Below are positions 17,963 to 30,745 of a stretch of 64,000 nucleotides of DNA, one piece after another. The stretch lies in IMG/VR virus record IMGVR_UViG_3300031555_004297. One strand, written 5' to 3'. The DNA is from a virus (Duplodnaviria; Caudoviricetes). The translations under genes were made by a program, and so were the position numbers. Position 1 is the stretch's first letter; the number at the start of each line of letters is the position of its first letter. The notes under the pieces were generated by a model. It did no database searches, was not told the origin of the DNA, and worked only from the letters and a program-made list of their open reading frames with translations.

Positions 17963-19720
17963 TTAATTAAATTCGTATACGTTATGTACAGCACTAGGTA
18001 CAAGGAACTGATTACAAGTTGCCATAATACCAATAATGCGAGCAACAGTATCAAGAATCGTAACGTCAGACATAATAGAAGTCTTAACATTGGTATCCCA
18101 TTTCTTGGTACGAATATTGTATACCATGGGTTCAGTTGCGCATGCATTAATCTTAATAATGTCAAACTTATCAGGAACGTCTCCTACATCTTCTGTAGCA
18201 TAAAGCGTAAGAACAAGCTCTCTATAAGCTGAATAGATAGCTTTATACAAAGCATTTTCTAGAGGATCTCCAGTTACAGCTACTTCAGAAGTGGCATTAT
18301 CGCTGTCAGCTGCATCAACATTATACAGTTCTACAATAGCTTTTACAGCAGACAGATTAGCAGCAAGGCCAACACCATTAGCTCCAGCGGAACGCAGGTT
18401 AAGTACAGCATCTTCTACAAGATCGCGGAGAGCATCTCTATCAGTTTGTGTAAGTCCACCCACATAAAGCTCTACCATATTACATTCAAGCGAATGCAGG
18501 CGACGCTTAAGAGTTCCGATAGTTCTAGCATCTTCACCCTCCTTAGAAGCGCGATCAATCTCTGTTCTAAGGAAAGCAATAAGATTATTGTAGATTTCAG
18601 AATATGATCCATCTTCATTACGAAGAAGAGACGGGTTAACAAAAGTTGTCTTCTCAGAATAAGAAACAACCTTATCACAATGTCCAGCCCAGTTCTTAAT
18701 CGTAGACGGAGTGGGAGCTCTTCCAGCTTCTACATCGGCCTGATATACCTTAGGATCAATATACTTACGAATCATCTTCGCACCGCACATTCTTGCAAGA
18801 TCCTCAAGCTGCTCAGGCTCATGATACTCGGTAATCACGCACACGGGAAGCTTATTTTCAGAAGATGCCTGAGCCATATAATTGATAAGACTATCCATAG
18901 AACCAGACAAATCCTGAGAAATCTTAGGAGCAAAGATTACAGTGGGCACAATCTCATCATAGTTTCCATCATTTACAGGAGTAATGAGATTCTGAGAAAT
19001 AATAGAACTAAGATAAGCAGCCATTTCTGCTGTATCTACAGGATGCTCAAAGAAGTAAAGTTCAGGATTAGGAACTTCACACGTATTGGTTTTGGGATTG
19101 GTAATGTAACAGGGATTATTATAACCACTATTAAGGGTCATACCATCATAGCTCTTGATTACCATCTCAGTGCCCATCGCGGGGCTTACATCGATATATG
19201 CACTGTTACCAAACTGCTCATAAATCTTATAAAGCGTCTGGGCAACAAATTCATTACCATTTGTAGAAATCATTGCAATATCATATACATCCTGAAGGGT
19301 GAGCTCAGTTGCAGACATCTTGATTCTAGCTTTAATATTTTCTACGACCTTTTCAAGAGCCTTAACAATCTCTACAGGTCTATACTTTCCAGAGGCTTCG
19401 ATCTCCTTAATCTGATTAAAGATAAGATTAGAAAGAAGTACTGCCGAAGTAGTACCATCGCCAACAGTCTTTACGATGTGACGAGTAATAGACTCGATGT
19501 CATCCTTAATAGACTGCTCGATAATACCATTATACTGAATAGATCCGAGAATGCTATGGCCATCTTTTGTATAACGAGCAAATGCATTCTCTTTCTTCAA
19601 ACAAGCATTAGATCCATTAGGACCAAATGAATGCACAAGAATCTCAGAAAGCTCTCCAAGAACATTCGACTGAACTGTTCTCAGTGTAGAGCCTCTAACT
19701 ACGTTGTTGATAATTTTCAT
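17963..19720 (-). CDS. groEL: Phage GroEL-like chaperonin
   Basis: SFGPNG, TKDG, VGDGTTSA, ISTNG, VGG.T and VEDAV motifs. Confidence 0.9.
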   Translation of the reverse strand: MKIINNVVRGSTLRTVQSNVLGELSEILVHSFGPNGSNACLKKENAFARYTKDGHSILGSIQYNGIIEQSIKDDIESITRHIVKTVGDGTTSAVLLSNLIFNQIKEIEASGKYRPVEIVKALEKVVENIKARIKMSATELTLQDVYDIAMISTNGNEFVAQTLYKIYEQFGNSAYIDVSPAMGTEMVIKSYDGMTLNSGYNNPCYITNPKTNTCEVPNPELYFFEHPVDTAEMAAYLSSIISQNLITPVNDGNYDEIVPTVIFAPKISQDLSGSMDSLINYMAQASSENKLPVCVITEYHEPEQLEDLARMCGAKMIRKYIDPKVYQADVEAGRAPTPSTIKNWAGHCDKVVSYSEKTTFVNPSLLRNEDGSYSEIYNNLIAFLRTEIDRASKEGEDARTIGTLKRRLHSLECNMVELYVGGLTQTDRDALRDLVEDAVLNLRSAGANGVGLAANLSAVKAIVELYNVDAADSDNATSEVAVTGDPLENALYKAIYSAYRELVLTLYATEDVGDVPDKFDIIKINACATEPMVYNIRTKKWDTNVKTSIMSDVTILDTVARIIGIMATCNQFLVPSAVHNVYEFN

Positions 19721-19738
19721 AGTTCGATTTCTCCTTTA

Positions 19739-20404
19739 TTAGTTTTCGTCCTGATCAGTGATATATGCTGACATAATTTCAATGTCATGGATATCTCCTA
19801 GATTAATAACAAGTTCAGGGCTTAATAATGTAAAGTCATCTTCGCTATAGTTTTCACTAAAGTTTAAAACAACAATACTTTTGGGACCTGGATAATCATA
19901 CATTAGAGCATGTTTATAGTTTCCGACAATTACTCTATTGTATTTGGTAAGGTCCACATCTTTACGCTCCCCTGTTTCGATAGCCACACTTGGGAACTCT
20001 TGAGTTACAAACTTCTTCTGTGCTTCATTTTCGCAATACACGGCTATCTTAACAATATCACCTCTACCTATTTTACTATAAGCAGAAATAAGGGTAGTAG
20101 CATTTGTCTTGAAAGCGTATTTGCCAAGAATGCACATTTCGTAATCGGCCCAAAGAGCATTAAGGACAGATTCAGAATGTTGTTTAAATTCATCTCCTAT
20201 CATAAGAGATTTAAAAACATCATCCTTATTTTGAGTTCTAGCTAATTTCCAGTCTAGGTCGGATGTATAAAGAACTCTGTGTTTATCAAAGTTCTGTAAT
20301 GCAGTCTCCCTATACTCACCAGCTAAAAACTTGATTGTAGAAATTTCTCTATCAATAAGAGAGTAGAAATCAAATAAAACACTGTTTTGCATAGTTTCAC
20401 ACAT
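19739..20404 (-). CDS. Hypothetical protein (possibly degenerate HAD fold)
   Basis: VLFDFYSLID N-terminal motif. Confidence 0.6.
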   Translation of the reverse strand: MCETMQNSVLFDFYSLIDREISTIKFLAGEYRETALQNFDKHRVLYTSDLDWKLARTQNKDDVFKSLMIGDEFKQHSESVLNALWADYEMCILGKYAFKTNATTLISAYSKIGRGDIVKIAVYCENEAQKKFVTQEFPSVAIETGERKDVDLTKYNRVIVGNYKHALMYDYPGPKSIVVLNFSENYSEDDFTLLSPELVINLGDIHDIEIMSAYITDQDEN

Positions 20405-22898: not shown

Positions 22899-23279
22899 AT
22901 GAATGATATTATAAATTTCTATGATAAAATGGATTTAAAATATCCTGAAATAGGAATAGCTATACAGGATATAGATAGAAGAAATCCAGGAATGGTAAAG
23001 TTTATTATTCCTATTCTAACGCCGAATCTAGATAGCTCTAAAGCATTTAATAAGACTATCTATCAGAATAAAAATAATTTAAAGAATAAAGCTATTGCAT
23101 TTGATATCAAAAATATATCTCTTACAAATTATGTCATCATTCCTATGCCTAAGGAAGTTTGTATGTCATATGATATGGAAGAAGATCCTATTATTCCATC
23201 TGGCTCTAAATGGATCTTATCTTTCATTGGTGGAGATATAACAAAACCAAGGCCTATTGCTAGATATCTTGAAATGTAA
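22899..23279 (+). CDS. Putative baseplate spike/hub OB-fold protein (gp5 N-terminal-like)
   Basis: G.VKF.IP.L and IPSGSKWILSFIGGDITKP; late promoter AACT-TAATAA-TA. Confidence 0.55.
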   Translation: MNDIINFYDKMDLKYPEIGIAIQDIDRRNPGMVKFIIPILTPNLDSSKAFNKTIYQNKNNLKNKAIAFDIKNISLTNYVIIPMPKEVCMSYDMEEDPIIPSGSKWILSFIGGDITKPRPIARYLEM

Positions 23280-23437
23280 ACAAATCGAATACAGCTGGAG
23301 AACGCGCTCCAGCTGTATTCTTTTTTGCGGTAAAATAATTTACGGAGGAGAAATCAACAACAATGAAAAGAAAACCATCACGTCTCACCACATGGAGGTT
23401 CAGAAATTATGACAAAGGCAGTAAGTTCATCATAATT
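23280..23437 (-). ncRNA. Candidate late sRNA with two anti-Shine-Dalgarno/anti-start modules
   Basis: AACA-ATAAAT-TA promoter at 23448-23437; 5' hairpin; two CCUCC motifs; terminator hairpin at 23288-23320. Confidence 0.5.
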
Positions 23438-23446
23438 AATTTATTG

Positions 23447-24631
23447 TTAATATCTATTCTCCACAATGTCGGGATAACTTACGAAAAGTCCGTAAGATTT
23501 ATGCTTGTAAACAACTGTAGAAGAAAGTTTATCGCGAAGAGCAACAAACTTATCATATGCAGTATTCCACTTGCCAAGCTCGAACTCATCACAGTTCTGA
23601 GAGTTACGATATTCGTCACAAATAGAAATATTGCTATTGATCTGCCTCATAAGGTAAAGAGCATCATCTTCATCTTCTACATTCTTAACCTGCATTGCAA
23701 GTTCATAATAAGCAGAATCGATCATCTTAAGGTTCTTCATTCTCATTTTTCTAAGAATCTTCTGTCCCACAGATTCCTTACCAGCCGATTCGCTAAATAT
23801 CATATCATCATCGATTCTCTGAATACGACGATATACATTACCAATCTCAAGCTTTTCAAGTCTAGAGCCGGTCATTGCCTTCATATCAGCAAGAGTCTTC
23901 ATAGCTCCAATACGCTGAAGCTTGATCTGGCGGTATAGACTAAGAGTCCAGCTAAAGATAATAAACTTGCTAGTCTCGCTATTCTCATAAAGCTTCATAT
24001 TGCCATTATTGATCTTTCTATATGCATCTACGAGATCTTCTTCCATTCCATATGCATTAATAAATTCATCATTGTAAATCTCAGCAACATCGGAAGTATA
24101 GAAGATAGAATCACACTTAGAAAGATAATCTTTCAGTCCATATGCAAGAATCTCTTTATAATGGATAGACTGGGATACACGAATATGATCTTTATTGTTA
24201 GCCAGATAGATATTGAGGGCATTGCGAGCATTCTCGATAGGAGTAGAATCTCCAGTAAGATGATTAACTTCTCTAAGAAGAAGCGCTGTAAGTCCTCTTA
24301 CAGAAATATCGGTAACAGGATCGAAGAGTTTAGAATCAAACTCGACAAGATAGCTGCTAATACGATACTTCTCTTCATCATTGGCCAAATATCCATAAAT
24401 TTCATCAGCATCAATCATAGGAATAATCTTAATGCCGAAATACATATTGTCATTATTTGTTGTATATAGAACCTCTTTACACTCAGAATCTGTAAAGAAA
24501 CGATTTAATTCATTCTTTAAAGATCTAAGATCTTCAGGCTCCACAGAAGTAGTCTGATCTTTCATTCTAGCAAATACAGAATGAAAGACAGAAAAGTCGT
24601 ACATAATTTCGCTCATGTTTATATCCTCCAT
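23447..24631 (-). CDS. Probable head protein with degenerate zincin motif
   Basis: LLLREVNHL in place of HExxH; FSESA site; late promoter; next to major capsid gene. Confidence 0.6.
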   Translation of the reverse strand: MEDINMSEIMYDFSVFHSVFARMKDQTTSVEPEDLRSLKNELNRFFTDSECKEVLYTTNNDNMYFGIKIIPMIDADEIYGYLANDEEKYRISSYLVEFDSKLFDPVTDISVRGLTALLLREVNHLTGDSTPIENARNALNIYLANNKDHIRVSQSIHYKEILAYGLKDYLSKCDSIFYTSDVAEIYNDEFINAYGMEEDLVDAYRKINNGNMKLYENSETSKFIIFSWTLSLYRQIKLQRIGAMKTLADMKAMTGSRLEKLEIGNVYRRIQRIDDDMIFSESAGKESVGQKILRKMRMKNLKMIDSAYYELAMQVKNVEDEDDALYLMRQINSNISICDEYRNSQNCDEFELGKWNTAYDKFVALRDKLSSTVVYKHKSYGLFVSYPDIVENRY

Positions 24632-24760: not shown

Positions 24761-26548
24761 TTACTTCATAAGGTTAAAGTCGCTCATGTAACGGCCACCA
24801 ATGGGATCAGTGTTGGGAGCGATATCAGTGAGACCAGTGGGGTTAAGGATCTGGATACGACCCTGAACAGGCTGATACTCAACGAACTGCCAACGCTCGA
24901 ACGCATGGATAGCGGGAAGAGCGGGATTAGCCATGTTACGGATCTCGTTCGATACATACATCTGGTAATCGTAGATTCTATATACGATACGGTCAGTATT
25001 TCTGGGGCAAAGAACGATAATCAGATTGGGATTTCCACGGAGCTTATCAGATGCGATAAACTGGTATACTCTCTTATCGGACGTAACAACAGTCTTAACG
25101 AAATCGAGCTCAACAGGACCGATGTTGGAGGGAGTCTGGTAGGTATACTCAGTAGGAGTAATCTTACGAACCAGATCAGGAGATCCAAAGATAGATACGG
25201 TCATGTTAGGATCGTTAAGAACCTGGAAGAGACCCGTGGTAACGGAATCCAGGTAATCCATGAACGTCTTATGTCTCCACTCAACGTGATCAAGAGCATA
25301 GCTTCCACGAGGAGCGAAGTCGAACGTGGTTGCGAACTTGCAATCATCGGGCATAGTCTTGAAGGAATCATCAAGCTTAGTCTTGATAGAGGTATCCTTG
25401 TACTCGCCGAGAACAGTCTTCATGAGCGAGAGGATCTTGGACAACTGATTTACATTGTAAAGAGCAGAGATGTCCTTAACTTCCTCAGGAGATACAGTGG
25501 TGTTGATGGGGTTAGCGCTGGGGATCTCAACGATATCAGTGCGAACCTTCCAACGAACGCTGCAGGTCTTAACCATAGCGGAAGAAGTATCAATACGAGC
25601 GCTAAGGCGAACGTCGGATACAAGGCCGCTGGTTCCATTAATAGCAAACTTATTGTTCTTCATGTATCCAGTGAGGACATCCTTAAGAACAACAGTCTTA
25701 GTGGGATCTGTTGCATCCTTAGAGTTTACAACAACCTCATCAGCAAGAACACGGTCGATCTCGCCGTAGGAAGGAGTAAACTTGATTCTTACAGGCATCC
25801 AGAAGCTGTACTCGCCATCTGCATCGACAGCAGCACCGGTCTCGGGGTTGATATCACCAGCCTGGAGATATACACCGTTAACCTTAACAGCGGAGATGTA
25901 AGTATCGATCGAGAGGTTATCCTCCTCAGTTGCACCGATAGTTGCAAGAACATCGGTAGCGCCTTCCATCTGAGGAAGAGTCATATCGATAGAAGTAAAG
26001 GGTGCAGTAGAAGCGATTGCATCGTGAATCTTATACTGCTCCTTGAACATATCGATCTCTTCACCAGCGGGAGTAACGAGAATTCTCTTCTCCATAGACA
26101 TGGTGAACTTAGGCTCACGTGCAACGAACTTGGGAATAGCACCCTTGTCGAAGACGTTGTTCATCATGATATTCTTATGAAGCGGGAAGGTCATGCCGAT
26201 TACAGGGTTCATGGAGCCCATGTAAGCGTGCTCGAGCACTGCCTCTTTATCATTCTCGAACTGTGCTACAGCCATGTCCTCAGCGTCCTCGCACAATGCT
26301 GCTGCATGTGCAGGATCAACCTTATCGAACTCGGCCGTATCAAAGGAATTCTCAACATAGAAGTTTTTCAGGGCATTGCAAGCAGAACCGATCTGAAGTG
26401 CCTTGAAGGGCTCAGTATACAGATCTACGCCTTCTGCAAGAATGCTGTTAGCGCATTCCTGGAAGCTCTTAGCAAAAGAGTAGATAGAATCTCTCTCATA
26501 GCCTCTGCCCAGGGTTGCGGTATTTTTGCGATTACCAACAATAGGCAT
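24761..26548 (-). CDS. Major capsid protein
   Basis: 595 aa with the strongest codon bias in the window, own late promoter and terminator, acidic propeptide ending VLE/H, head-gene context. Confidence 0.75.
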   Translation of the reverse strand: MPIVGNRKNTATLGRGYERDSIYSFAKSFQECANSILAEGVDLYTEPFKALQIGSACNALKNFYVENSFDTAEFDKVDPAHAAALCEDAEDMAVAQFENDKEAVLEHAYMGSMNPVIGMTFPLHKNIMMNNVFDKGAIPKFVAREPKFTMSMEKRILVTPAGEEIDMFKEQYKIHDAIASTAPFTSIDMTLPQMEGATDVLATIGATEEDNLSIDTYISAVKVNGVYLQAGDINPETGAAVDADGEYSFWMPVRIKFTPSYGEIDRVLADEVVVNSKDATDPTKTVVLKDVLTGYMKNNKFAINGTSGLVSDVRLSARIDTSSAMVKTCSVRWKVRTDIVEIPSANPINTTVSPEEVKDISALYNVNQLSKILSLMKTVLGEYKDTSIKTKLDDSFKTMPDDCKFATTFDFAPRGSYALDHVEWRHKTFMDYLDSVTTGLFQVLNDPNMTVSIFGSPDLVRKITPTEYTYQTPSNIGPVELDFVKTVVTSDKRVYQFIASDKLRGNPNLIIVLCPRNTDRIVYRIYDYQMYVSNEIRNMANPALPAIHAFERWQFVEYQPVQGRIQILNPTGLTDIAPNTDPIGGRYMSDFNLMK

Positions 26549-27447: not shown

Positions 27448-29886
27448 TTAATCTTGGTCCTTTGGAGCATCATAGTATTTCTGTCCGAGATCTACTTTCA
27501 TTTTATATTTAATTCTTTGAAGCTGTCTTTCAAGATTTCTCTTTGTCATAAGAAGCTGTTTTAGTGCCTTCATATCATTCTTCTGCTCAGCAATCTGAAT
27601 GTATTTATCGCACATCTTCATTTCAATCTCAATTTCATCGATAACCATCTGACGCTCTTTAGACTTAAACTTAGCAGAAACTCCAAGATAACCAAGAGTT
27701 CCAATTACTGCAATAGCAGGATGGATGAAGAACGAAAGTCCAGCATTAACGATAGCCATTTTAATAACTTTAGAAGCAGACGGGAGAATTCTTCCTTTAA
27801 TAATAGCTTCTCTATTATCATTAGTAAGAGCATCCTCTACACCTTTCTTCATATTATTAACACTAAGGTCAATAGTCTGAGACATTTGTCTATCCTTATC
27901 TTTAAGTCCAGTCATTGCTTTTCTCAATTTCATAGAAGCTAATTTCAATGTATTAGAAATAGAAGCCTCCATAAGAGGAGAAGTTTCATTAGCATTGACT
28001 GTACTAAGGAGTTGAATTCCTTGAATTGCTTCACAAATAGAATCCATTTCCATCTTTCCTTGGAATACTGTCATAGCAGAGCTTTCATCATCAGGTCTAA
28101 TCTGTTCAAGAATATTAAGAGCAGAGTGGATAGAGCTAATTCTTACAGATCTTGCTACAGTGCTCTCAAGAGTAATTTTATTTTTTCTAATATTAGAAAG
28201 CACAGACTCGAGAGATATTTTCATGATATCTTTATGGAAATCCTGAGGATATTTTGCACCAAGATAAGCAAGATCAAGCATTGCATCATTATCCGCGTTC
28301 TCCATAATTGAGAATATCATATCTTCAGTAATAGGATTAGAGTTATAAGCTCTTAATACATCTTCAAGAACAGATCCGATATGGGTGGTTGCTTTGCAGA
28401 TGTCTGCAAATTCATTAAATTCTCCAAAATCAAAATCATCAAGAAGATCATCATCTAATCCATTGGTATCTATGTCACTTGTATCGAGATCATCATCTGA
28501 TCCGATATTGTCATACATCTGATCCTGCTCTTCATCTGTGAGAAGTTCAGAATGGTACATATCTAGTTTAACAAGAGCTTTCTCAAGAGCATCTTTATAC
28601 TTCTCGAGTTTCTCTTTTTCATCCTTATCATTAGTAGAACTAATTTTCTTTTCGGTTGCTTTAATTTCGTGCTCAAAGCATTTAATCATCTTAGCAACTT
28701 CTTTGCGTTCTACATGCAGCGAGATAAATTTATCAGCAATAAATCCAACAGCTGCAACTACAGGTCCAATAAACGGAATAGCTACACTGCCAACAATGAA
28801 GAAGGATCTAAGCCACTTGAGTAGATTAGGTGTCTCCTCAATAATATTTGTCACATTGTTAGAATATAGCTTAGTAATCAACCCTTTAAGCTTGTTCTCG
28901 GGTTTGTCTGTCTTAGCAAGTTCTTCCTCTTTGAACTTGTTGAAAATATCTTCGAACTCTTTACTTTCTTTAACAGGAATGCTAATATTATTATCACCAT
29001 AATGCCTTTGGAGCAACTGATCGATAGGCTCTTCGGTCTGTTCTGGTTCGTCTTCCATGAGAATATCGATGTTGCCCATATCCTCATTTTTATCAAAGAA
29101 TAAAGTAGCCTCGAGAATTTCTTTACATGACTCACGTCCATCCGGCTTGAACAAGAAATAGTCGATAGCAGTTTCAAGAAGTTCAGACTTCTTGTAATCT
29201 ATATTATTGGATTCAAATCCATAAAATGCGGTTTCAATGACAGTATTGAACTTAACGGCCGTAGGCATTTGATAAGTATCAATTCTATTACAAAGTTCAA
29301 CAACGGTATCGCTGACACCGTTAACTCTTGTATTTTCATTGATCAGCACTTCGAGATTGAATCTCTTGGAAACTCTATTATAATTTTCAATAACTCTATC
29401 GCAATTAGCATAAATAATAGCTGCTTCGAGCATCTTAGTATATGCTTCTACCATTGCCTGATCCTTTTCTTGATCTTGAGGAATAGGAGCTTGGGGCTTA
29501 TCGGCTACAGGATGAGGCTGTACCGGAGGAGCAATAATATGCGGTTGCAGCTTATGCTGAGCAACCGTTAATCTCCTTTTAAGCAATGTTTGAGTGTGTT
29601 TTGCATCTCTAACTTTTCCGATGCCTTCATTAGCAATAAATAATCCAACTTTAGAAATTTCAGATACATTGGCTTTTTCAGAAAATGCCTGATACATATC
29701 TAAAATCTGATATAGATTTACCTCATTACAGCTTGTGATCTTAGTTTCAATCATTCTTTTCAGATCAGCAGTTCTCATTGATTTCATTCCCCGCCAATCT
29801 AAATTATGTTGTTCTCTAAATGAGCTGGTTGGCGCAGTAAGATTTTGCATTCTTTTACGAATATCGCTCATTAAAACTTGTCTCAT
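27448..29886 (-). CDS. Large head/internal virion protein with two hydrophobic-hairpin + coiled-coil repeats
   Basis: Multiple xxE-A/S sites, acidic linkers, late promoter AACT-TATAAT-TA. Confidence 0.6.
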   Translation of the reverse strand: MRQVLMSDIRKRMQNLTAPTSSFREQHNLDWRGMKSMRTADLKRMIETKITSCNEVNLYQILDMYQAFSEKANVSEISKVGLFIANEGIGKVRDAKHTQTLLKRRLTVAQHKLQPHIIAPPVQPHPVADKPQAPIPQDQEKDQAMVEAYTKMLEAAIIYANCDRVIENYNRVSKRFNLEVLINENTRVNGVSDTVVELCNRIDTYQMPTAVKFNTVIETAFYGFESNNIDYKKSELLETAIDYFLFKPDGRESCKEILEATLFFDKNEDMGNIDILMEDEPEQTEEPIDQLLQRHYGDNNISIPVKESKEFEDIFNKFKEEELAKTDKPENKLKGLITKLYSNNVTNIIEETPNLLKWLRSFFIVGSVAIPFIGPVVAAVGFIADKFISLHVERKEVAKMIKCFEHEIKATEKKISSTNDKDEKEKLEKYKDALEKALVKLDMYHSELLTDEEQDQMYDNIGSDDDLDTSDIDTNGLDDDLLDDFDFGEFNEFADICKATTHIGSVLEDVLRAYNSNPITEDMIFSIMENADNDAMLDLAYLGAKYPQDFHKDIMKISLESVLSNIRKNKITLESTVARSVRISSIHSALNILEQIRPDDESSAMTVFQGKMEMDSICEAIQGIQLLSTVNANETSPLMEASISNTLKLASMKLRKAMTGLKDKDRQMSQTIDLSVNNMKKGVEDALTNDNREAIIKGRILPSASKVIKMAIVNAGLSFFIHPAIAVIGTLGYLGVSAKFKSKERQMVIDEIEIEMKMCDKYIQIAEQKNDMKALKQLLMTKRNLERQLQRIKYKMKVDLGQKYYDAPKDQD

Positions 29887-30005
29887 TGATGCCGCCTCCC
29901 TAATTTAATTTAATTATAAGTTAGCGCCTAAGTAGATCAAAATAGATTGAGTTACAAAAAAAATAAAGATGGGCAGGACTTAGGGCCCTGCCCATAATCT
30001 ACCGA

Positions 30006-30656
30006 TTAAATATACCAACCACGAGGAGTATAAGTTACCTCGGGCTCGGGATAGTTTGCCTTATCATCACAAGCGCAGTCGATACAACAGTGCTTTTTAT
30101 CATTAACAGCTGCTTGTCTTTCAAGAGCTCTATCCATAAGATCCTTCATAATATGATATCCTTCGACAAGAGCTCCGGGGTTAGAAATCGGAACAAGAAT
30201 TGCAGAAGGTCTTTCTGCATTTCCAATAATACATGCCTCTGTTACGGGACCGAGATCGTGAGTGCTACTATCTTCACCAATACCACAATATCTCAAACCA
30301 TTATTGAGAGTATTTACGATAAGAGTAGAAGTCTTACCAGCCTCAGTAATCGGAACTGCAGGAATAATTGCCGCAAAACGGCTATCATTATAACCCTTAA
30401 TATGACCATCAAGGGTATTTACCATACCATTATCAGAAAGGATTGCATGAGCCACATCCATTCTTTCCATATAAGGATACAATCTCTCGACTACATCATA
30501 AGGATCGATGGGATTATTAAAGAAATCCATGGGTTCATAAGGTGCTACGACCATCTCGGCTGCACATGCCTCACATTTTTCAAGTTCAGCAGGATCAATT
30601 CGATTAATCGCTTCTGCGGGAACCTGAATTACTTTTGCTTTAAGCTTTCTTTTCAT
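30006..30656 (-). CDS. Hypothetical early protein
   Basis: Early promoter near 30718, SD AAGGAG, terminator at 29969-29995. Confidence 0.75.
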   Translation of the reverse strand: MKRKLKAKVIQVPAEAINRIDPAELEKCEACAAEMVVAPYEPMDFFNNPIDPYDVVERLYPYMERMDVAHAILSDNGMVNTLDGHIKGYNDSRFAAIIPAVPITEAGKTSTLIVNTLNNGLRYCGIGEDSSTHDLGPVTEACIIGNAERPSAILVPISNPGALVEGYHIMKDLMDRALERQAAVNDKKHCCIDCACDDKANYPEPEVTYTPRGWYI

Positions 30657-30745
30657 AGTTTAATTCTCCTTTAATGAATTAAGTATTTTTAATTGGAAGT
30701 TGACCTTCCATTACTTTTATAATATATACTCAAAAATTAATTATA

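What the first reader, a model, noticed from the sequence alone, without database searches (positions are those of the whole stretch)
23280..23448. Late sRNA candidate complementary to the start region of early gene 30006..30656
The RNA would read GUUUUCUUUUCAU-UGUUGUUGAU-UUCUCCU. The 30656 mRNA reads AGGAGAA-UUAAACU-AUGAAAAGAAAGC. That gives 13 bp over AUG and the first codons (one G-U) plus 7 bp over the SD. A second module (anti GGAGGUUCAGAAAUUAUGACAAAG) has no in-window target. The promoter overlaps the upstream stop codon.
Basis: partly seen in the sequence, partly recalled or inferred. Interest (0 to 1): 0.72.

Follow-up and report, generated by a model that had tools for sequence, protein, structure and literature searches.

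The report
Jumbo-phage RNA masking ribosome sites
An uncultured giant phage keeps a short gene-less unit whose predicted RNA is the mirror image of a gene's start signal; across related phages it changes in step with the start signal of the phage's own chaperonin gene, so it probably turns down translation of that gene and a few others, but neither the RNA nor any repression has been shown.

Summary
The described pairing with gene 30006..30656 is real (13-14 bp over AUG, 7 bp over the SD) but not unique: rank 4-6 of about 145 phage starts, and foreign start regions used as mirrors do as well. The unit itself holds up. A late promoter (AAC[A/T]-N6-TR, enriched upstream of genes here, matches the AR9 late consensus) overlaps the stop codon of gene 23447..24616 and predicts a ~150-nt minus-strand RNA: 5' hairpin, open anti-SD/anti-AUG segment, terminator. 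Sixteen related phage lineages keep an insert here, 15 with the promoter, all with anti-SD sequence, none with a sense SD; the plus-strand frame is not conserved. New result: the insert co-varies with the RBS of the phage chaperonin gene (17963..19720) across 11-12 phages (family-wise p 0.0003-0.04), whereas 30656 co-varies only with the closest relative. Best reading: a late, trans-acting, multi-target RBS-blocking sRNA, chaperonin the best-supported target, 30656 a possible lineage-specific one. Module B is doubtful; host targets are untested. One advance prediction was only half met. No transcript or repression shown. The scan noted sister units before, in this genome and in another phage.

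The parts
23437..23448 (-). Late (phage non-virion RNA polymerase type) promoter AACA-N6-TA, overlapping the stop codon 23449-23447; predicted start of transcription 23437
   Evidence: Motif in 48 of 103 upstream regions of this genome, N6 spacing only, gene strand only; equals AR9 late consensus with start at the last base (PMC5312081); present in 15 of 16 related lineages that have the insert
23280..23437 (-). Predicted small RNA, about 150-158 nt (may also exist as the 3' UTR of the upstream mRNA)
   Evidence: Promoter to terminator; fold z -4.7, driven largely by hairpins; no Rfam family; a metatranscriptome contig covers 23311-23768, strand unknown, weak
23405..23437 (-). 5' hairpin, 12 bp; its 3' arm is the anti-AUG of 'module B'
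   Evidence: Folds; a 5' stem of different sequence is predicted in most relatives
23394..23416 (-). Module B: anti-SD (23398-23394) and anti-AUG (23411-23409); doubtful, no clear phage target
   Evidence: Anti-AUG costs 5.5 kcal/mol to open; best phage partner not outstanding; seen only here and in the 89% relative
23344..23376 (-). Module A: anti-AUG/first codons (23376-23363) and anti-SD (23355-23344), predicted single-stranded; the likely seed
   Evidence: Opening cost under 1 kcal/mol; recognisable in relatives at 89, 76 and 62% protein identity
23287..23320 (.). 14-bp intrinsic terminator hairpin shared by the convergent units (U-run strong on +, weaker on -)
   Evidence: a hairpin of this kind is at the same place in all relatives
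19714..19735 (-). Start region of GroEL-like chaperonin gene 17963..19720: best-supported target (10 bp from the SD into the spacer, 7 bp over AUG)
   Evidence: Cpn60 hits; cognate preference over 11-12 phages p 5e-5, family-wise 0.0003-0.04, signal on the SD side
30643..30670 (-). Start region of gene 30006..30656 (216 aa, unknown function, early-type promoter motif at 30728-30719): possible lineage-specific target
   Evidence: Longest anti-AUG match in the genome and best 2x2 score against the 89% relative; no family-wide co-variation
23447..24616 (-). Upstream gene, 389 aa, unknown function, follows the major capsid gene; its stop codon is part of the promoter
   Evidence: No Pfam/PHROG hit; 355 homologues
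22899..23279 (+). Convergent gene, 126 aa, unknown function, with a late promoter motif; ends at the shared hairpin

Best explanation
An AR9-like jumbo phage makes, late in infection and with its own RNA polymerase, a ~150-nt non-coding RNA from a promoter at the stop codon of gene 23447..24616. A 5' hairpin and the terminator stabilise it; between them lies an open segment complementary to Shine-Dalgarno and start-codon regions. It pairs in trans with a small set of mRNA starts and blocks ribosome loading. The target under lasting selection is most likely the phage chaperonin gene (17963..19720); other starts of the same type, including the early-type gene 30006..30656, are probable secondary or lineage-specific targets. 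Shown: sequence layout, motif enrichment, conservation pattern, co-variation statistics. Inferred: transcription, timing, pairing in the cell, repression. My odds: real antisense sRNA 0.75; chaperonin a true target 0.5; 30656 a true target 0.3.
For: Promoter motif validated in three genomes and tied to the insert in relatives (15 of 16 with insert; absent where only the terminator follows the stop). Anti-SD core on the transcribed strand in 14 of 16 lineages and a variant in the other two, sense SD in 0 of 16, per-sequence chance about 0.1-0.5. 10 of 12 promoter-to-terminator units in this genome carry anti-SD against 3.7 expected. Seed is accessible. Chaperonin RBS is the only one of 11-15 genes with strong cognate preference; survives jackknife, removal of close pairs, three window sizes and family-wise correction, including a matching one-base indel between this phage and its 89% relative. 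Plus-strand frames are 1-191 aa or absent and have no promoter.
Against: No stranded RNA data and no functional test. In this genome the chaperonin start ranks only 6-9 and 30656 ranks 4-6; two other genes score clearly better with accessibility. One relative (L013) pairs worst with its own chaperonin start. My advance prediction for the 77% clade was half met: 10 nt on the SD side and 7 at AUG match, the spacer does not (different samples). The chaperonin was picked after inspection, only genes within about 10 kb could be tested, and one of ten control mirrors also showed cognate preference (p 0.01), so a genome-wide SD flavour may contribute. Some relatives have no insert at all. The G-U asymmetry test was uninformative.
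Confidence: 0.55

Rival explanations
1. It is an antisense sRNA, but its real targets are host mRNAs (or it is a broad anti-SD damper of host translation); matches to phage starts are side effects of shared Firmicute start sequences.
For: Relatives carry one to four different start-like mirrors that have no outstanding phage partner; module B has none here; the module A pattern is common in bacterial starts; a host-dependent SD flavour could shape both the RNA and the chaperonin RBS (control p 0.01).
Against: Ten other phage starts show no such cognate preference; no single host gene family recurs among 120 genome matches. Host unknown, so not properly tested; not exclusive of the best explanation.
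Confidence: 0.2
2. One reading: a dedicated repressor of early gene 30006..30656.
For: Longest anti-AUG match of 148 starts; compensatory-looking change with the 89% relative (-9.7 kcal/mol, best of 15 genes); early-type promoter motif.
Against: No family-wide co-variation (p 0.15-0.96); ranks 64 and 15 in two related whole genomes; 7% of foreign starts give such a match.
Confidence: 0.1
3. The plus strand is the functional one: real SD+ATG starts for small peptides or the 191-aa frame 23363..23938, or ribosome-decoy RNA.
For: Both modules read as SD plus ATG on the plus strand; a 191-aa frame is open here.
Against: Frame shrinks to 23 aa in the 89% relative and to 1-39 aa or nothing in others; SD-ATG spacing up to 16 nt; no phage promoter on that strand, which lies behind a strong terminator; no family hit.
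Confidence: 0.05
4. A non-functional relic or plain 3' UTR: pyrimidine-rich filler or the decayed start of a lost gene.
For: Absent in several relatives; body sequence turns over fast; an RNA contig runs from the upstream gene into it.
Against: A dedicated promoter motif is kept with the insert; anti-SD is kept while everything else changes; co-variation with an unlinked RBS; similar units elsewhere in the genome.
Confidence: 0.1

Closest known systems
Streptococcal csRNAs (CiaR-dependent small RNAs; PMC3091779)
   Same: [quoted passage not shown]
   Different: Phage-encoded, driven by a phage late promoter, no CiaR box, no sequence family match; modules are re-tuned from phage to phage and can be tandem.
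3' UTR-derived sRNAs with their own promoter (Salmonella DapZ type; PMC9438474)
   Same: [quoted passage not shown]
   Different: Phage RNA polymerase promoter; presumed Firmicute host, no Hfq dependence shown; no sequence relation.
Phage base-pairing RNAs: c4 of P1/P7, sar of P22, PreS of lambda (PMC12197685; 10.1101/2024.10.31.621285)
   Same: Phage RNA that pairs at or near a ribosome-binding region; c4 acts in trans on the phage's own mRNA.
   Different: Those come from temperate phages and serve immunity, lysogeny or host genes, made by host RNA polymerase. Here an AR9-like jumbo phage, late promoter, candidate target a chaperonin. The review names no jumbo-phage case; dRNA-seq of early phiKZ infection confirmed no sRNA (PMC8244752).
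AR9 late transcription units (PMC5312081)
   Same: Promoter consensus AACA-N6-TA/G; early AT-rich consensus; chaperonin gene; some late promoters drive antisense RNA.
   Different: AR9's reported antisense RNAs are cis, opposite genes; my term search of the paper found no trans-acting small RNA. Capsid identity to cultured phages is only 21-25%.

Membership tests
csRNA | Anti-SD plus anti-AUG in an unpaired region between two hairpins | tested here: met
   Module A
csRNA | CiaR-box promoter (consensus from my own knowledge) | tested here: not met
   No match near the unit; 7 matches in the window against 6.7 expected
csRNA | Match to an Rfam model | tested here: not met
   Best E-value 2, far below gathering scores
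3' UTR-derived sRNA, own-promoter type | Promoter at the end of the upstream gene and a shared terminator | tested here: met
   Sequence motifs only
3' UTR-derived sRNA, own-promoter type | Discrete primary transcript | not testable with these tools
   Only unstranded contigs
Trans-encoded base-pairing sRNA | Short imperfect complementarity to unlinked mRNA starts | tested here: met
Trans-encoded base-pairing sRNA | Compensatory change between RNA and target | tested here: met
   Chaperonin RBS, family-wise p 0.0003-0.04, one clear exception; statistical, not experimental
Trans-encoded base-pairing sRNA | Repression that depends on pairing | not testable with these tools
   Needs a reporter
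Trans-encoded base-pairing sRNA | G-U wobble bias showing which strand pairs | tested here: inconclusive
   27 against 24 for the chaperonin; bias for other genes confounded by composition
c4 antisense RNA | Rfam c4 structure and an antirepressor target | tested here: not met
   No hit; no such target among the top ranks
Cis-antisense or type I antitoxin RNA | Overlaps its target gene on the other strand | tested here: not met
   Neighbouring convergent gene ends at the shared hairpin; no conserved plus-strand frame

The most novel reading that the evidence does not exclude
A lineage of AR9-like gut jumbo phages runs its own layer of translational control: late-promoter small RNAs built from short, fast-changing mirror copies of ribosome-binding sites (one to four per RNA, about ten such RNAs per genome), of which this one is held in step with the chaperonin RBS over long evolutionary distance while picking up other targets, early genes or host genes, lineage by lineage.
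Probability: 0.35. Interest if true: 0.8.

Novelty: new variant of a known kind. Interest (0 to 1): 0.62.

Why it matters
Functional trans-acting sRNAs are described mostly for temperate phages; none was found for jumbo phages with their own RNA polymerases in the papers read here. If real, this gives such phages a way to time or cap protein output after transcription, and supplies a concrete RNA-target pair, with natural compensatory variants, that can be tested in a Bacillus or E. coli reporter without culturing the phage.

Tried and rejected
Rfam: nothing. Cultured phages: no relative of the RNA; capsid only 21-25% like LPJP1 and phiR1-37. Whole-genome target ranking in three phages: no orthologue is top in all three. 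Advance prediction of the chaperonin spacer in the 77% clade: not met, flanks met. Wobble asymmetry: uninformative. Host target: host unknown; a pattern scan gave 120 generic starts, many encoding signal peptides, no recurring family; the same pattern in viral contigs was unspecific. RNA runs: two with small shares; patchy unstranded contigs, one spanning 23311-23768 and ending inside the hairpin, too weak to count. Consensus fold of three close relatives: only the terminator aligns; one structure call was malformed. Gene 27448..29886 as target: p 0.003-0.13 raw, 0.07 or worse after correction. Functions of the 812-aa, 389-aa, 216-aa and top-scoring 559-aa proteins: not identified. Energies are RNAduplex plus my own opening-energy sum, not IntaRNA; gene starts come from a simple caller.

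Full report
Setting. The window lies in a 185-kb virus record with major capsid (24761..26548), terminase, prohead protease and a GroEL-like chaperonin (17963..19720). Its nearest cultured capsids are LPJP1 and phiR1-37 at 21-25%, so it is an uncultured jumbo phage of the AR9/phiKZ-like kind (inference). The finding is the gap between convergent genes 22899..23279 (+) and 23447..24616 (-), both of unknown function.

Observation. The pairing is as described: 13 bp (14 with a second G-U) over the AUG of gene 30006..30656 and 7 bp over its SD. It is the longest contiguous anti-AUG match among 148 starts. But it is not exceptional as a whole: rank 5 of 143, 4 of 148, and 6 with accessibility; foreign start regions used as mirrors reach 13 bp with some gene in 7% of cases and -27 kcal/mol in 55%.

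The promoter. AAC[A/T]-N6-TR occurs in 48 of 103 upstream regions, once on the other strand of the same DNA, only at spacing 6, and likewise in two related genomes. It equals the mapped AR9 late consensus, whose last base is the start (PMC5312081). It predicts an RNA from 23437 to the 14-bp hairpin at 23320-23287, about 150 nt: a 12-bp 5' stem, a weak middle stem, an open stretch holding module A, and the terminator. Module A's anti-SD and anti-AUG cost under 1 kcal/mol to open; module B's anti-AUG is the 3' arm of the 5' stem and costs 5.5, so module B may be partly a by-product.

Relatives. Using the upstream protein I collected loci at 89% down to 27% identity. Sixteen distinct lineages at 58-100% have an insert of 30-130 nt between the stop codon and the terminator; L019 and the 47-52% group have the terminator only. 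The promoter is present in 15 of the 16 with insert and absent in L019. The inserts mostly cannot be aligned, yet 14 of 16 carry an anti-SD core and the other two a variant, none a sense SD, against a per-sequence chance of about 0.1-0.5. Many carry an anti-AUG at start-like spacing, some in tandem, up to four in L101. The plus-strand frames behind these mirrors are 191 aa here, 23 aa in the 89% relative and 1-39 aa or absent elsewhere, with no phage promoter on that strand: they are not genes.

Which target? I paired each phage's RNA with each phage's start region for orthologous genes and asked whether own pairs beat crossed pairs. The chaperonin stands out: p 0.0003 with 10 phages, 5e-5 with 12, at most 0.0004 in any jackknife, at most 0.004 after removing close pairs, family-wise 0.0003-0.04 over 11 genes, with the signal on the SD side. 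Own SD-side matches are 9-12 nt in seven lineages, and a one-base indel next to the SD is shared by RNA and target between this phage and its 89% relative. Gene 30006..30656 shows nothing family-wide (p 0.15-0.96), but in the same close pair a change in codons 2-3 is mirrored in the RNA, the best 2x2 score of 15 genes, just ahead of the chaperonin. So module A may use its anti-SD half mainly on the chaperonin and its anti-AUG half on 30656 in this sub-lineage (inference from single events).

Limits. The chaperonin was chosen after looking; only genes within about 10 kb were testable; L013 is a clear exception; my written prediction for the 77% clade was met on the flanks (10 + 7 nt) but not in the spacer; one of ten control mirrors also preferred its own chaperonin start (p 0.01), so shared SD flavour may add to the signal; in this genome two other starts pair better; across three whole genomes no orthologue is top in all. 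In AR9 the chaperonin is a late gene, and here it follows both an early-type and a late-type promoter and an internal hairpin, so 'late RNA shuts off early genes' is not the whole story; capping output is as plausible. Host targets could not be tested. RNA evidence is one unstranded contig, 23311-23768.

Family in the genome. A blind scan for late promoter, non-coding body and terminator gave 12 units, 10 with anti-SD against 3.7 expected, among them this one, 30856(-) and 45751(+); the two related genomes gave 6 of 15 each, against 2.5 and 3.7. Earlier notes of this scan describe these sisters and a similar unit in another phage; they are leads, not support.

Comparison. It works like streptococcal csRNAs (anti-SD and anti-AUG between two hairpins, PMC3091779) and is placed like DapZ-type 3'-end sRNAs (PMC9438474), but belongs to no Rfam family and lacks a CiaR box. 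Known phage RBS-binding RNAs (c4, sar, PreS) are from temperate phages (PMC12197685); none was confirmed in early phiKZ infection (PMC8244752).

Verdict. New variant of a known kind; interest 0.62.

Noticed in passing
window 30856-30756 (-) and 45751-45833 (+); genome positions about 70.6 kb and 28.4-28.9 kb before the window, and 69122 (-): Sister units with late promoter, anti-SD body and terminator; the 30856 unit sits directly before the early promoter of gene 30006..30656.
   Followed up: partly
window 20449-20419 (-): A strong terminator-like hairpin lies right before gene 19739..20392 and the chaperonin, with no promoter motif after it, so both may depend on read-through; a similar hairpin end is seen in relatives.
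   Followed up: no
window 23388-23382 (-); L009, L020 and L166 inserts: A 7-nt loop motif (GTGAGAC) in a middle hairpin recurs in four otherwise unalignable inserts; possible protein-binding or structural loop.
   Followed up: no
L101:11174-11340: Insert with four tandem start-region mirrors, all predicted open, and a terminator on the RNA strand only; the clearest example of the modular form.
   Followed up: partly
L167:196-1875 (-), genome 23195-24874: A 559-aa gene of unknown function whose start is the best-scoring partner of module A in this genome; its orthologues rank only 32-33 in two relatives.
   Followed up: partly
window 29855-29905 (-), gene 27448..29886: Start region shows weak cognate preference (p 0.003-0.13 raw), clearest in L099, L100 and L015; possible further target.
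   Followed up: partly
L099:14667-14930, L100:14747-15022: Relatives carry a small gene with a Pfam Sequestin (PF21825) hit between the DHH gene and the next gene, absent at that place in this window; candidate counter-defence protein.
   Followed up: no
L153 and L133, after the stop of the 389-aa homologue: More distant relatives have the late promoter motif and a 55-95-nt insert without anti-SD: a different small RNA or an ancestral state.
   Followed up: no
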